A stretch of 63,692 nucleotides of DNA, filler included, from Collodictyon triciliatum (GCA_043381765.1; 27 parts of 27 records of this genome joined end to end with filler, not necessarily neighbours in it), one strand, 5' to 3'. Positions 38,034 through 62,100 are shown, numbered from the whole stretch's first letter. Numbers and translations are program-made. The notes: generated by a model from the sequence alone, not told the origin.

Positions 38034-39031
38034 TAATATTCCTCGGTTTGGTGGACAGGGTCTGAGCGATGTTGAGTCCGGCCTGTTGAGTGCTTGTGGC
38101 TCGGGGCGTTAAACTGGGGTGACAACGCTTTCAAGAACAAGCACTACTTCCATCTGTCTCTCTCCAGTTCAAAGGCAGCTTTTTATCGTCGGATGAAGTT
38201 GTTTGTTTGTTTGTTTGTTTGTTTGTTTGTTTGTTTGTTTGTTTGTTTGTTTGTTTGTTTGTTTGTTTGTTTGTTTGTTTGTTTGTTTGTTTGTTTGTTT
38301 GTTTGTTTGTTTGTTTGTTNNNNNNNNNNNNNNNNNNNNNNNNNNNNNNNNNNNNNNNNNNNNTTAATTAATTAANNNNNNNNNNNNNNNNNNNNNNNNN
38401 NNNNNNNNNNNNNNNNNNNCTTTTTTCTTTTTTCTTTTTTCTTTTTTCTTTTTTCTTTTTTCTTTTTTCTTTTTTCTTTTATCCACGGCCTTGTCTCTTG
38501 CGACTGTTGCGTTGTCGAGCGCCACTTGCGCGGCCTCTGTGCGGAATCGGCGAAAGTAGAATGCCTTTTGGGGGTGCAAGCAGGGCGATCATACCAAATA
38601 ATCACGACCACAAATATATGTGGATTTTATAAGTTCAACAATCTTAAATCATCAATAATCACCATTATGATATATTAATAACATTATACATGAAATATGA
38701 ACAATATGATACATAAAATAAAACTTAGATGCAGCAACAATACACTAACCCACCAAACATGGCGCAATGACGCACTCGGCATACACCACTATTTCTGTAA
38801 TCAGAAATCTGCAACCAACCCGAGTCCAAATCCATATTATTTCCTCTTCGTATCCCTCAATTAGCCTCCAAGCAAGTATTCTAACAAACCAACTAATGAT
38901 GAGTCTGTAAACGCCCCGCCCTTTCAGTCAGACCCAACCAGGCCAACTCCCACGAGAAAACGAGGGCTGAAGAAACAAATCAGAAAAGCACTCACACTCA
39001 ACCCTTCTCTTAATCCACAGGATCGAAGTCG

Positions 39032-40478
39032 ATGTCTTCTGGAAAGGAGGCCTCGATTTTAAAGTCTCTGGACGTTCAGGTGGTCTCTCCTACGTAAGTA
39101 CCCGAGAATCTTTTCCTTGGCGAACTCCTTCTTCCAGGCTATTTTCCAAAACTCACCTTCCTTTCACCTAACTCCTCCTTCTCTTGAACCTCGCCCTCTC
39201 AATTTTTTTATTTTTATATTATCTTTCTTTTAGACATGACCGCTTTGTTTCCTCTTTTGCAACCGAGATGTATATGTTTAACCTTTTGTGTTTCTCTCCG
39301 AGTTTCCTGGCAAGCTTACTCTGACGAATAGTGATTCTTTTAGAGGAACCCCGTTTGCTCTTCGGGACTCTTGGGAGAAGGGATCCACGCTGATAGTCCT
39401 GCTCCGCCGCTTCGGATGAGTAGGCACTTTCTTGAGAAACATTTCAGCTTCTGTTGTCTTGGGACACTCTCATAGATTAATTACTTTTTAGAACTCGTGT
39501 CCTTTTTTGATTTTTTTTTTAAGCAACATTGTGATCAATTCAACACCTGATATATCGTAGGTTTTGTGCCGCCATTCGGCCGCTCGTCTGTCCCTGATGA
39601 AACCGTTGATGGACAGCTTGAGTGTGCGAATGGTGGCGGTCGGACTGGAACGGTCTCTGCCCTTCATCGCTTCACTCGTTCTCCATATTCTCCAACTCTT
39701 CTTGATGTTACAATAATAACTACTCACCTTTCATGTTCTTTGAGTTGTATTATATTTAGAGATAATTACAAAAATTCTTTTGGTGGTTATCTCACGTAAT
39801 TTTTTTCATTTCTTTAATGCAGCCTTGGGTTGGATGAATTCATCGAAGGCAAGTACTGGTCCGGTGACCTCTATATTGATGAAAGTCAGGTGTGCTAAGC
39901 CTTTGTTATTCACTGTATATATTTATCTTTCCGTTAGTATATTAGTCATTTCTTACCTTCCGTATTTTCAGTCATCATACAAGAATCTTGCGTTGAAGCG
40001 ATTTGGTTTCACTGACGGATATGGTTTGCTCGATCGCTCCCTTTTCACTGCGGTTGGACAGGCTGAAGGTGTTGGATTTAAAGGCAACCTCAAAGGCGAT
40101 GGATAGTACGTTATCTTTGTTTACAGTATACATGATTAAACACATCCTTCTTTCCCTCTAACAGAGTCAGGTATCTCACTCAAATGCATTCTTTTACTTT
40201 ACGTGTGATGATAGCCAACTCGGAGCCACTTTTGTGATTATGAGGACTGAGAGTGGTAACCCCCCCCCCCCCCCCCCCCCCCCCACCACCACTAATCTAT
40301 ATATCATGCCGTGTTCAAAGGTTCAATCCATCACATTTTGACAGGCATACAGCGTGGACTAACATCATTAATGAATATTATATTCAAAGGCTACCAAATC
40401 CCATTCGAGCACCGCCAGACATCTTATGCTGACCACCCGAAGAACTTAGACATCGTCAAAGCCATGAACCTAAGTCCG
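39032..40478 (+). CDS. Peroxiredoxin-like 2 / selenoprotein U family (PRXL2B-like) with in-frame TGA, 8 exons, probably 3'-partial
   Basis: Spliced product: ...LRDSWEKGSTLIVLLRRFG[TGA]VLCRHSAARLSLMKPLMDSLSVRMVAVGLERLGLDEFIEGKYWSGDLYIDESQSSYKNLALKRFG...GFKGNLKGDGYQLGATFVI...FEHRQTSYADHP. Confidence 0.9.
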
Positions 40479-40603
40479 GTAAGGCCGGGATGGGCTATAT
40501 TTTGAAGAATACATTTCCTTTTCAACCCTTACATTTTCTCTGAGACTCAAGCTCAAAAGAAACAATAAAAACAAATATTAATAAATAATACCAAATAAAC
40601 AAA

Positions 40604-40673
<70 letters not shown>

Positions 40674-40988
40674 AAAAAAAAAAAAAAANNNNNNNNNNNN
40701 NNNNNNNNNNNNNNNNNNNNNNNNNNNNNNNNTTAATTAATTAANNNNNNNNNNNNNNNNNNNNNNNNNNNNNNNNNNNNNNNNNNNNAAAAGACAATAA
40801 AAGACAATAAAAGACAATAAAAGACAATAAAAGACAATAAAAGACAATAAAAGACAATAAAAGACAATAAAAGACAATAAAAGACAAAAAAGACAAACAG
40901 ACAGAAAACCCTCACCAACACATCAATCCAAAATCTCCCATCGCACCTCTATCCATAGAGCACAGACTTCAGCAACTATTACTCGCAA

Positions 40989-59225: not shown

Positions 59226-59736
59226 AGTTGAAGTTACAATTTAGTATTTAGCTCATGAAAAGGAAATAAAACAACAGCTACTACTTTTTGGATGGGTAAA
59301 ATCAAGTTTACCTCTTGTTCGGTGGCCCCTAAATTGAAAGCTGCTCGAAGATAAAGTAAATCCTTAGTACTGGTGAGCTCTGGTATACCTGTGCAAACCA
59401 TCTATTCGCAAAAATAAAATAAAATAAAATGGGAAATATAAGTGTGTGTCCAATCTAAGGAAATGTGAATATAATGATTCCGAAGAAAAGAAAAGAAAAG
59501 AAAAGCATAAAAAGCATAAAAAGCATAAAAAGCATAAAAAGCATAAAAAGCATAAAAAGCATAAAAAGCATAAAAAGCATAAAAAGCATAAAAAGCATAA
59601 AAAGCATAAAAAGCATAAAAAGCATAAAAAGCATAANNNNNNNNNNNNNNNNNNNNNNNNNNNNNNNNNNNNNNNNNNNNTTAATTAATTAANNNNNNNN
59701 NNNNNNNNNNNNNNNNNNNNNNNNNNNNNNNNNNNN

Positions 59737-62000
59737 CCTGTGGCCTGACCTTGGCTATCCGCGAGATATAGCTTGCCGTTGGTGGGTACGCTTGTGACAG
59801 TGAGTGTGATTGCCAGTCCGTCAAGGTCGCTCGCCGTTACCGTTGTTGCTTGTTGCTGTTGCTCTTGTATCGAAATGCTGCTAGGATTGGACGATATCAC
59901 TGGATTTCGTGCAACAAACCCTACATTTGTTGACACGCTGACAGCTGTCGACGCCAGATTGCTATTGTCTATCACCGTGTACGAGAAGGTGTCGAGGTTG
60001 TTTCCGTAGTCTTTCGCTGCTCCTGCAGACGGTGGTGTGTACACTACAGACACAGCGCTTTGCGATGCACCAAGCGGTGTGATATATCCGGTAGTAATTG
60101 TTGTACTTCCTATGCTCAGCTTGCCGAGGAATCCGCTGGGAATCGTAAACTGCACCTTGACTTGGTCTCCTGCATCGTAGTCGTTGGGGGTGATGCTGAA
60201 TGACGCTGGGGTGTATCGGTTGGTTTGGATAGGATTGGATGAGACTGTGCTCACAGGCGCATGGTTCACGTGCACAACAGAAATCGTCACAGTCGAGGCG
60301 GTCGAATCAAGCTTGCCATCGTTCGCTGTAAACGTGAACGTGGTGTATGGGTTGCCGAAAGAGTATGCAGAGTTCACAAAGCTGACAGACTTTGGTGTGC
60401 CGAGAGAAAACGGGACGGTGTTGATTGCTTGTCCGTTGAACGACAGCGTGCCTTTGGTTGGGAGTGTGCGTATTGTGTACGTCAGTGTCTCAGCTGGCAC
60501 GTTTGCGTCTGTCGCAGCTAGTGTGACGGTCACCGGTGTGTCTTCGTTGGTGCTGACACTTTGCGATTGAGATACGGGTGCGATGTTGACATAGTTGACG
60601 GTTATCGGCACGGTCTTTGTGTCAGCTGCTTGGTTGTTGTCAATCACTTGTACACTGATTTGGTCTGTGTAGAACTGGTTCGCTGCTGGCGTGTATGTCA
60701 GCGTCGCTCCGTTGGATGGGAGGGTGTACTTTGTGTTTACGACTATGGAAGTGCTTTCCATCATCAGCGATGACCCAGCTCTGGTCGGCAGTGCTGTCAC
60801 GGAAAAGCTCAGGGTGTCGCCCACGTCTACATCTTGTCCGTTGATAAGAATAGAAGCTGCGACATTCAGGTTGGTGCTGACTGCTGTCGGCATAGTCGCT
60901 GTGGGCGCGTGGTTGACGTGGTTGACGTTGATTGATAGTGTTTGCTCGTTCGACCGAAGCTGTCCGTCAGACACATAGTATCGGAAGGTGGTCACGGGTT
61001 TACCATACGTGAGCTTTGGAGGTGTGTACCGGATAGTGGTCGACCCACCGGTCATTACAAGTGGTGTGCTGGCTGTCACAGCTGCGCCTCCATACGTAAT
61101 TGTCCCGATTGTCGGAAGCTGAGATATATATGCTGTGATGGCATCTTGGTTGTCGTCTTTGCCTCCCAGTGGTATATCGACAAAGCTGTCCTCATTGCAG
61201 TCGGGTGTAGTTGCGGTTGTGGTTGTTGGTGCAAAATTGACCTGGCTCACACTAAGTGTAAGTGTAAGCGGTGTGGACGATACTTGAGAAGAGTCACGAG
61301 TGACCACCGTTATGGTTGCAACGGGTCCGGTCATGAGAGCGGGTATTCCGACTGTAATGAGCCATGTATTGCTGTTACTGGTCGAGCGCACAAGTTGTGT
61401 GTTGGCTGCGATGTTGATGCCACCGCTGGCTGCTGTCACACCGCTTGTCAGTGTGACTCCTGTGGCCACTGCATTGATGATATCACCGTCTGGGTCGACA
61501 CCACTCACACTGAATATTGCTGTCTGTGTCGATTGCGATGATTGCATGGTGATACTTGGTGCAGTTGCGCTTACAAACGGTGCATAGTTCTTGTCTGCAA
61601 CAGCTACACTCACGGTTGTGGTTGATGACTTGGCGGTGTTCTGAGTGCTCAGGGTGTATGTATCAGTGTTTGCTCCAAGAGATACATAGACAGATGATGG
61701 AATGGGCGCAACATAAACAATTTGACTGCTGATGCTCCCCGCACTGCTTGTGGATATGACTTGACCGCTGCTCAGTGCGTTGCCTGTGGCCTGACCTTGG
61801 CTGTCCGCGAGATATAGCTTGCCGTTGGTGGGTACGCTTGTGACAGTGAGTGTGATTGCCAGTCCGTCAAGGTCGCTCGCCGTTACCGTTGTTGATTTTT
61901 GCTGTTGCTCTTGTATCGAAATGCTGCTAGGATTGGACGATATCACTGGATTTCGTGCAACAAACCCTACATTTGTTGACACGCTGACAGCTGTCGATGC
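59737..62000 (-). CDS. Internal fragment of a large surface protein made of bacterial-type Ig/cadherin-like (Big_9/tandem-95-like) repeats
   Basis: Open across the whole contig with no introns. Thr/Ser/Val-rich units of about 105-125 aa begin NxAP and contain ED, DxD and LPTxGxL motifs. Confidence 0.88.
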
Positions 62001-62100
62001 NNNNNNNNNNNNNNNNNNNNNNNNNNNNNNNNNNNNNNNNNNNNTTAATTAATTAANNNNNNNNNNNNNNNNNNNNNNNNNNNNNNNNNNNNNNNNNNNN

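What the first reader, a model, noticed from the sequence alone, without database searches (positions are those of the whole stretch)
39344..39652. Hidden selenoprotein candidate: PRXL2B/SelU-like gene with TGA at the catalytic UxxC, as the last codon of an exon
Seen: exons 39032-39093, 39234-39269 and 39344-39419 splice in frame. The third ends CGC CGC TTC GGA TGA|gtaggc (TGA at 39417-39419), and the next exon (39561) starts GTT TTG TGC CGC, giving RRFG-[TGA]-VL-C-R. Five intact exons follow, and no GT donor removes the TGA while keeping the motif. Known: PRXL2/SelU proteins carry RRxGCxxCR, and some SelU proteins have Sec at the first Cys. Inference: TGA is read as selenocysteine, implying a Sec pathway in this protist. 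The downstream sequence looks closest to PRXL2B, which is Cys-type in mammals. The ORF track misses this gene, and an automated caller would probably call it a pseudogene. No SECIS is visible, because the 3'UTR probably lies beyond the contig.
Basis: partly seen in the sequence, partly recalled or inferred. Interest (0 to 1): 0.8.

Follow-up and report, generated by a model that had tools for sequence, protein, structure and literature searches.

The report
Selenocysteine-type PRXL2/SelU gene in protist
A spliced, expressed thioredoxin-like redox gene of a freshwater protist has a TGA codon where its relatives have the catalytic cysteine, so it is very probably an ordinary but unannotated selenoprotein of the known SelU/PRXL2 family.

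Summary
The core observation holds. On the 2.27-kb contig 38420-40688, a + strand gene reads RRFG-[TGA]-VL-C-R. The TGA (39417-39419) is the last codon of an exon that joins to 39561.

Spliced RNA contigs from 4 of 4 runs laid (3 studies) show this junction. They also correct the gene model:
- A short leader is joined at 39019/39021.
- The transcript splices out at 40478 to sequence that is off the contig.

The TGA column aligns with the first Cys of RRFGCxxCR in 105 of 212 family proteins. That Cys is catalytic Cys44 of human prostamide/PGF synthase. Another 17 proteins look interrupted at that column. A metagenome relative (L001) has TGA at the same site and a SECIS-like hairpin.

The closest relative is labelled Diphylleia rotans and is 79% identical. 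Its ORF starts only after this column.

All 6 RNA variants listed are synonymous, on both sides of the TGA. TGA is absent from 1295 other coding codons in the window.

Not tested: the SECIS and the Sec machinery of this organism. The 3' end is missing and no genome is held.

Verdict: a genuine Sec-type SelU/PRXL2 gene (about 0.8), a new member of a known kind. Earlier scan notes concern bacterial relatives only.

The parts
39019..39020 (+). AG acceptor where a short 5' leader (21-24 nt seen, ending ...CCTAATCAAAG[AG]) is joined to the transcript
   Evidence: table 7: the same loose end lies before 39019 in 4 of 4 runs; the sequence there is CCACAG|GATCG; the leader motif is absent from the window.
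39021..39093 (+). Exon 1; CDS starts at ATG 39032; donor GTAAGT
   Evidence: the contig pieces cover 39019-39093.
39344..39419 (+).
   Evidence: the joint 39093>39344 is present in X1, X2 and X3. X6 has the same junction with a base difference..
39417..39419 (+). In-frame TGA (codon 46), proposed selenocysteine codon; last codon of the exon
   Evidence: It aligns with the first Cys of CxxC.
39561..39652 (+). Exon 3; starts VLCR (resolving Cys TGC at 39567-39569)
   Evidence: the joint 39419>39561 is present in 4 of 4 runs; tblastn with P0002.
39823..39889 (+). Exon 4 (LGLDEFIEGKYWSGDLYIDESQ)
   Evidence: the joint 39651>39822 (cut +1) is present in 4 of 4 runs; weak PF13911 hit, E 0.043; 91% identity to P0002.
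39972..40105 (+). Exon 5 (…GVGFKGNLKGDG)
   Evidence: the joint 39885>39968 (cut +4) is present in 4 of 4 runs; 84% identity to P0001.
40215..40255 (+). Exon 6 (QLGATFVI…)
   Evidence: the joint 40105>40215 is present in 4 of 4 runs. The next joint is masked by the poly-C run 40260-40284, but the record coordinates in table 8 are contiguous..
40390..40478 (+). Exon 7; donor CCG|GTAAGG; the transcript continues off the contig (rest of CDS, stop and 3'UTR are not in the window)
   Evidence: table 7: a loose end lies behind 40479 in X1, X2 and X3 (median 255 nt); no match in the window to residues 124-163 of P0002.

Best explanation
This is an expressed gene with at least 8 exons for a thioredoxin-fold CxxC oxidoreductase of the SelU/PRXL2 family (Pfam AhpC-TSA_2). 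Its closest named relatives are prostamide/prostaglandin F synthase (PRXL2B). The attacking cysteine of the RRFG-C-xx-C-R active site is encoded by UGA and is read as selenocysteine.

Inferred mechanism:
- A SECIS stem-loop in the 3'UTR, which lies on DNA outside this contig, recruits SBP2, eEFSec and Sec-tRNA(Sec), so that codon 46 is decoded instead of ending translation.
- The selenolate at the position of human PGFS Cys44 attacks a peroxide or endoperoxide substrate.
- Cys49 (TGC at 39567-39569) resolves the intermediate as a selenenylsulfide.

Shown here: the gene structure, its expression and splicing, retention of the TGA in mRNA contigs, and homology of the TGA column to the catalytic Cys.

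Inferred: Sec decoding, the SECIS, the Sec machinery and the substrate.
For: 1. Sequence: RRFG-TGA-VL-TGC-R spans the 39419/39561 junction.

2. RNA: spliced contigs in 4 of 4 runs (3 studies) carry this junction, at depths of 78, 66, 11 and 2. No difference is listed at 39417-39419.

3. Family: the ortholog P0002 matches PF13911 at E 4.4e-19. A profile of 29 full-length relatives matches PDB 9us9, human prostamide/PGF synthase, at E 7.5e-64, with RRFGCVVCR aligned. Cys44 is described as the catalytic residue (PMC12938796, passages read).

4. The TGA column in 212 family proteins of 100-320 aa:
- 105 have Cys.
- 6 have W, as expected if TGA was translated by another table.
- 11 ORFs start 1-2 residues after the column.
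- 59 start later.
- 31 are other or gapped.

5. L001, a metagenome relative, has TGA at the same column and a TAA terminal stop. It also has a hairpin of -21.4 kcal/mol (z -4.64) with UGA/GA core strands and an AAAA apical loop, about 100 nt downstream.

6. The nearest relatives are labelled Diphylleia rotans. They are 79% identical over 125 aa and group with the window protein at support 0.996. They are known only as ORFs starting at a Met 17 codons after the column.

7. All 6 of 6 variant positions listed in or derivable are synonymous: 39059, 39091 and 39344 upstream of the TGA, and 39606, 39617 and 40037 downstream.

8. Two GT92-domain ORFs in the window total 1295 codons with 26 Cys and 28 Trp codons and no in-frame TGA. 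The gene itself uses TGC and TGG.

9. Sec-type SelU is documented in fish, birds, Ostreococcus and Thalassiosira (PMC2375036, passages read).
Against: - No SECIS could be examined. The window holds only 210 nt beyond exon 7, all of it intron or A-rich, before a scaffold linker. Rfam finds no SECIS or tRNA-Sec in the window.
- No genome is held, so tRNA-Sec, SPS2, PSTK, SepSecS, eEFSec and SBP2 are untested.
- The X1 and X2 contigs differ from the window at one unlocated letter within 39344-39419 (table 8).
- The Logan contigs laid are assemblies and drop rare variants, so a minor TGC/TGT allele cannot be excluded.
- X1 and X2 are only guessed to be RNA.
- The truncated ORF of the Diphylleia-labelled ortholog is indirect evidence, because its DNA was not seen.
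- A search for a separate N-terminal ORF fragment found nothing.
- The Rfam SECIS models also fail on the L001 hairpin, so that element rests on my reading of a fold.
Confidence: 0.8

Rival explanations
1. UGA terminates translation. The gene then yields only a 45-residue peptide, or a shortened enzyme initiated at an internal Met (MKPLMDS…) that lacks the first active-site residue. It would not be a selenoprotein.
For: No SECIS and no Sec machinery have been shown for this organism. Databases hold the ortholog only as the post-TGA ORF.
Against: - The RRFG motif and the N-terminal strand upstream of the TGA are conserved with full-length relatives.
- The 3 of 3 variants listed upstream of the TGA are synonymous.
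- A product starting at an internal Met would lack the catalytic residue and Arg40/Arg41 equivalents, which PMC12938796 describes as strictly conserved.
- The truncated database ORFs are what gene callers produce for any selenoprotein.
Confidence: 0.08
2. The gene is a pseudogene or null allele, or the TGA is an assembly error on a small unplaced contig. In that case a TGC/TGT codon mutated to TGA, or was misread.
For: The contig is a 2.27-kb unplaced fragment in a concatenated scaffold. A single base change turns TGY into TGA. One unlocated mismatch exists in the X1 and X2 contigs within this exon.
Against: - Contigs from 4 runs in 3 studies place the joint at 39419 with the A present. These include a lineage about 7% diverged (X6 record 8, with 6 differences in 91 nt).
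- All introns are spliced, expression is high, and the rest of the frame is intact over 187 codons.
- All 6 listed variants are synonymous.
- The same column is TGA, W or an ORF break in other family members.
Confidence: 0.05
3. The organism reads UGA as a standard amino acid, through a variant nuclear code (Cys as in Euplotes, or Trp) or through efficient near-cognate readthrough, without selenium.
For: The frame stays open if TGA is a sense codon. With the corrected gene model, no TGA terminator of this gene is seen, because the real stop is off the contig.
Against: - The GT92 ORFs at 4712-6901 and 43786-45480 have 0 in-frame TGA in 1295 codons, against 26 TGT/TGC and 28 TGG.
- The gene itself uses TGC once and TGG twice.
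- Stop-to-stop frames at 7810-9108 (-), 47853-49079 (+) and 40959-41579 (+) end in TGA, although it was not shown that these are real gene ends.
- The TGA falls on exactly the one column where Sec is known in this family.
Confidence: 0.04

Closest known systems
Selenoprotein U (SelU/SELENOU1) of fish and birds, and the SelU genes of Ostreococcus and Thalassiosira
   Same: It belongs to the same family. Sec is encoded by UGA in place of a Cys found in homologs. [quoted passage not shown]
   Different: No SelU1 sequence was in hand, so this comparison rests on the literature. The named relatives of the window gene are all PRXL2B/PGFS-type. The animal survey found Sec only in the SELENOU1 (PRXL2A) branch (bioRxiv 10.1101/2025.05.29.656587, passages read). 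The host is a heterotrophic freshwater protist whose nearest database match is labelled Diphylleia.
Human prostamide/prostaglandin F synthase (PRXL2B/FAM213B; PDB 9us9, 9usa)
   Same: It is the best and only solved-structure match: profile E 7.5e-64, and ortholog P0002 E 1.6e-18. It shares the RRFG-C-xx-C-R active site, a thioredoxin-like fold, and Cys44 as the attacking residue with Arg40 and Arg41 conserved (PMC12938796).
   Different: The human enzyme has Cys at position 44, where the window gene has TGA. Whether a protist enzyme acts on prostaglandin H2 is unknown and unlikely to be its native role. Identity was not computed: the ortholog P0002 aligns to the PDB chain over about 125 residues.
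Metagenome relative L001 (contig Ga0105051_10057344)
   Same: It has TGA at the identical column (LRRFG-TGA-SLC) and a SECIS-like hairpin in the 3'UTR.
   Different: It is only 33% identical to the window protein. The contig has 22% GC, and the gene has no introns in the matched part. Rfam does not call its hairpin a SECIS.

Membership tests
SelU/PRXL2 family (Pfam PF13911 AhpC-TSA_2) | PF13911 domain | tested here: met
   The ortholog P0002 scores E 4.4e-19, 69 bits, against a cut-off of 27. All post-TGA exons of the window align to P0002 by tblastn at 76-93% identity for the main exons. Scanned singly, 1 of 5 window exon peptides gave a weak PF13911 hit (E 0.043) and 4 gave none, as expected for peptides of 22-44 aa.
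SelU/PRXL2 family (Pfam PF13911 AhpC-TSA_2) | RRxG-C/U-xx-C-R active-site motif | tested here: met
   The window reads RRFG-[TGA]-VL-C-R. R, R, G, C, C and R are invariant in the 29-sequence alignment A1. The column holds Cys in 105 of 212 relatives.
SelU/PRXL2 family (Pfam PF13911 AhpC-TSA_2) | Thioredoxin-like fold | not tested
   No structure was predicted. The fold is inferred from sequence homology to PDB 9us9, which PMC12938796 describes as Trx-like.
Eukaryotic selenoprotein | In-frame UGA at a position that is Cys in homologs | tested here: met
Eukaryotic selenoprotein | UGA retained in the mature, spliced mRNA | tested here: met
   the joint 39419>39561 is present in 4 of 4 runs and no difference is listed at the codon. 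One unlocated mismatch lies elsewhere in, or at, this exon in X1 and X2. The evidence comes from assembled contigs, not raw reads.
Eukaryotic selenoprotein | SECIS element in the 3'UTR | not testable with these tools
   The 3'UTR is not in the window. Rfam finds none in what is held. The scan for transcript contigs returned only L001.
Eukaryotic selenoprotein | Sec machinery in the genome (tRNA-Sec, SPS2, PSTK, SepSecS, eEFSec, SBP2) | not testable with these tools
   No genome is held for the window. There is no tRNA in the window.
PRXL2B / prostamide-PGF synthase subfamily (SELENOU3) | Closer to PRXL2B than to PRXL2A or PRXL2C | tested here: inconclusive
   All named relatives are PGFS or PGFS-like: 6 of 6 named animal clusters, and every functional (non-placeholder) name. 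The only PDB match is PGFS. However, many of these names are automatic, no PRXL2A or PRXL2C sequence was available to contrast, and deep nodes of my tree are unresolved (support 0.188).
PRXL2B / prostamide-PGF synthase subfamily (SELENOU3) | Reduction of PGH2 or prostamide H2 | not testable with these tools
   This needs an enzyme assay.

The most novel reading that the evidence does not exclude
The gene may be a selenocysteine form of the PRXL2B/PGFS-like branch of the SelU family. In the animal survey, Sec was found only in the SELENOU1/PRXL2A branch. Together with the 17 of 212 family ORFs that look interrupted at the same column, and with L001, this would mean that Sec at this site is widespread and probably ancestral in the PGFS-like branch among protists. 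It would also be the first evidence of a working Sec pathway in Diphyllatea/CRuMs, a deep-branching lineage for which my two searches found no selenoprotein paper. In addition, the conserved short leader on this mRNA hints at spliced-leader trans-splicing in that lineage.
Probability: 0.4. Interest if true: 0.45.

Novelty: new member of a known kind. Interest (0 to 1): 0.3.

Why it matters
Standard gene callers truncate selenoprotein genes or call them pseudogenes. This one is absent as a full-length protein from the databases searched. One confirmed selenoprotein gene implies the whole Sec-decoding pathway in its host. The host appears to be a relative of Diphylleia (CRuMs), a lineage near the base of Amorphea with no selenoproteome description in the searched literature. 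The gene therefore adds one data point to the map of Sec/Cys exchange in the SelU/PRXL2 family. The family, the site and the mechanism are all already known, so a specialist would find this sound but not surprising.

Tried and rejected
1. Whole-genome search for Sec machinery: no genome is held.

2. Rfam: at gathering thresholds on the whole window there were 0 matches. At E up to 10 on 39000-43500 there was one irrelevant match and no SECIS. ARAGORN found 0 tRNAs.

3. My own crude SECIS pattern-and-fold script found 0 candidates on the contig. It also missed the L001 hairpin, so its negative result says nothing.

4. Recovering the transcript's 3' end:
- The metagenome-contig scan with P0002 matched 126 stretches, of which 1 was confirmed: the distant L001.
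- tblastn of P0002 residues 124-163 against the window found nothing better than E 2.6.

A 40-aa reference extended into the upstream intron gave no candidate among proteins of 22-70 aa. This is weak evidence only.

6. The leader motif has 0 matches in the window at up to 1 mismatch.

Their small word shares are no evidence of anything.

8. The tree of 213 sequences resolves only the grouping of the window protein with the Diphylleia-labelled proteins (support 0.996). Deeper nodes are unresolved (0.775, 0.188), so no order of Sec/Cys events is claimed.

10. My first gene end, the TGA stop at 40503-40505, is rejected for the same reason.

11. Earlier scan notes: there were none for this genome. 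Two notes on bacterial PRXL2/SelL-like Sec genes in other genomes were seen and not used.

Full report
**Setting.** The window is not one locus. It is 27 pieces of about 2.27 kb joined by 26 linkers of the form N44-TTAATTAATTAA-N44. Neighbouring pieces are therefore unrelated. The finding lies on the piece 38420-40688, which ends in a poly-A run (40605-40672) just before a linker. No whole genome is held for the window.

**Observation.** Direct reading confirms the key claim:
- The ATG is at 39032.
- An exon at 39344-39419 ends …CGC CGC TTC GGA TGA and is followed by GTAGGC.
- An exon starting at 39561 begins GTT TTG TGC CGC.
- Together these give RRFG-[TGA]-VL-C-R.
- The only other GT in the last 40 nt of the TGA exon is at 39396. 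Using it would remove the LLRRFG motif.

**RNA evidence.** One run search found 20 runs holding part of the stretch, all with small word shares and mostly freshwater metatranscriptomes. I laid four of them on the contig. X1 and X2 come from one study and their RNA label is a guess. X3 and X6 come from two other studies and are on record as RNA. All four are assembled contigs, not raw reads.

The joints seen are:
- 39093>39344 in X1, X2 and X3. X6 has the same junction with a base difference next to it.
- 39419>39561 in 4 of 4 runs.
- 39651>39822 (cut +1) in 4 of 4 runs.
- 39885>39968 (cut +4) in 4 of 4 runs.
- 40105>40215 in 4 of 4 runs.
- 40255>40390 is not listed, because the poly-C run (40260-40284) was masked. 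The record coordinates of the flanking pieces are contiguous to within the masked letters.

Contigs join across it, and depth is 0 over 39104-39331 in all four runs. The exon is 36 nt, so the frame is unaffected.
- The contigs carry a leader of 21-24 nt that is not in the window. It is joined at the AG at 39019-39020.
- In X1, X2 and X3 the transcript leaves the contig at the donor 40478|GTAAGG and continues for at least 255 nt. By the record lengths, 485 nt (X1) and 742 nt (X2) remain. Read in frame by me, the first 30 letters continue the ORF and resemble the C-terminus of the ortholog.

No difference is listed at 39417-39419 in any run. One caveat remains. The X1 and X2 pieces covering 39344-39419 have one 'other letter' whose place is not printed. 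The joint is placed at 39419, with the next two letters fitting both sides. The same tool reported a mismatch at a joint edge elsewhere as 'letters between'. Together these argue that the A at 39419 is present, which excludes TGT or TGC.

**Coding constraint.** Six variant positions are listed in, or derivable from:
- 39059 T>C.
- 39091 T>C.
- 39344 A>C.
- 39606 T>C.
- 39617 C>T.
- 40037 C>G.

All 6 of 6 are synonymous in the spliced frame. Three lie upstream of the TGA and three downstream. Further differences in the diverged X6 contigs are counted in table 8 but not located. The spliced frame has 187 codons within the contig and one in-frame stop, at codon 46.

**Family.**
- Exon 5 finds a single cluster (1 significant protein among 9 candidates, 84% identical). 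Its members are labelled Diphylleia rotans in EukProt.
- The spliced window protein is 79% identical to P0002 over 125 residues. It groups with these three proteins at support 0.996.
- P0002 matches Pfam PF13911 (AhpC-TSA_2) at E 4.4e-19.
- These ortholog ORFs start at a Met 17 codons after the TGA column. That is what an ORF caller gives if an in-frame stop lies just upstream. Their DNA could not be fetched.
- A full HMMER scan with P0002 found 410 proteins at E up to 1e-3, of which the best 150 are listed.
- In an alignment of 212 family proteins of 100-320 aa, the TGA column holds Cys in 105 and W in 6. In 11 the ORF begins 1-2 residues after it, and in 59 it begins later. The other 31 have a gap or another residue.
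- RR.GC..CR is invariant in the 29 full-length sequences of A1.

**A relative with DNA.** The one metagenome locus recovered is L001 (126 stretches matched, 1 confirmed). It encodes a 33%-identical relative with LRRFG-TGA-SLC at the same column and a TAA terminal stop. About 100 nt downstream there is a long hairpin (L001 2189-2288). It has a lower stem of 16 pairs, an internal loop, GUGA and UGAG strands facing each other, a 4+6 bp upper stem and an AAAA-containing apical loop. Its energy is -21.4 kcal/mol and its z-score is -4.64, and 0 of 200 shuffles fold as well. By its architecture I read this as a SECIS, but the Rfam SECIS models do not score it. It shows that Sec forms exist in this part of the family. 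It says nothing direct about the window gene's own 3'UTR.

**What it resembles.**
- The only solved structures matched are human prostamide/prostaglandin F synthase, PDB 9us9 and 9usa. The A1 profile scores E 7.5e-64 and P0002 scores E 1.6e-18. RRFGCVVCR aligns to the motif.
- The structure paper (PMC12938796, passages read) describes Cys44-x-x-Cys47 as the CXXC motif. It names Cys44 as the residue that attacks the peroxide, and describes Arg40 and Arg41 as strictly conserved.
- All informative source names among the relatives are prostamide/PGF synthase. So are 6 of 6 named animal clusters.
Many such names are automatic, however, and I had no PRXL2A or PRXL2C sequence for contrast.

**Literature.**
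[quoted passage not shown] It occurs as a Cys homolog in mammals (PMC2375036 and PMC3316567, passages read).
- A recent preprint maps SELENOU1 to PRXL2A, SELENOU2 to PRXL2C and SELENOU3 to PRXL2B. It reports that all Sec genes it detected lie in the SELENOU1 branch (10.1101/2025.05.29.656587, passages read). Its supplementary trees were not visible to me.
- A search for Diphylleia together with selenoprotein found 0 papers.
- A search combining CRuMs names with selenocysteine or selenoproteins listed none with both among its 12 top rows.

**Rivals.**
- Variant code. This is unlikely. Two GT92-domain ORFs in the window total 1295 codons with 26 Cys and 28 Trp codons and no TGA, and the gene itself uses TGC and TGG.
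- Pseudogene or assembly error. This is unlikely given the shared TGA junction in contigs from three studies, one of them from a lineage about 7% diverged, together with intact splicing and synonymous-only variation.
- Termination at the UGA with an internally initiated product. This cannot be excluded without the SECIS. It conflicts with the constraint seen upstream of the TGA and with the loss of the catalytic residue.

**Verdict.** This is a genuine, expressed, Sec-type member of the SelU/PRXL2 family, with confidence about 0.8. The SECIS, the Sec machinery and selenium incorporation remain untested, because the 3' end and the rest of the genome are not available here. It is a new member of a known kind, and interest is modest.

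Noticed in passing
window 39019-39021 (5' end of the transcript): RNA contigs from 4 of 4 runs begin with the same 21-24 nt leader (…GCTAACACTACCTAATCAAAG), joined at an AG acceptor. A diverged X6 contig has the same leader with one change, ahead of a different 5'UTR. The leader's last 14 nt are not in the window. This looks like spliced-leader trans-splicing. A literature search combining 'spliced leader' with CRuMs names listed no paper holding both among its 10 rows.
   Followed up: partly
whole window: The window is a concatenation of 27 pieces of about 2.27 kb joined by 26 N44-TTAATTAATTAA-N44 linkers. Most pieces end in low-complexity runs. Gene neighbourhood therefore carries no meaning here.
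   Followed up: yes
L001 1674-1676 and 2189-2288: A metagenome contig (22% GC) encodes a family member with TGA at the same active-site column. It has a SECIS-like hairpin (z -4.64) that the Rfam SECIS models do not score.
   Followed up: partly
window 59685-62048 (-): A 787-aa open frame spans a whole piece and carries bacterial cadherin-like and Big_9 domains, at about 49% GC. It may be bacterial contamination of the assembly, or a transferred gene.
   Followed up: no
window 4712-6901 (+) and 43786-45480 (+): Two long intron-free frames on separate pieces both carry glycosyltransferase family 92 domains (E 2e-18 and 2e-22). This suggests a multi-copy family.
   Followed up: no
window 40260-40284 and 40789-40880: A 25-nt poly-C run lies inside the intron between exons 6 and 7. 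An AAAGACAATA tandem array sits at the start of the next piece.
   Followed up: no
family proteins P0032, P0054, P0080, P0144 and two more: Six database proteins have W at the Sec column (RRFGW…C). This is probably TGA translated with a Trp-reading table by the depositors' pipelines, so they may be mis-translated selenoproteins.
   Followed up: no
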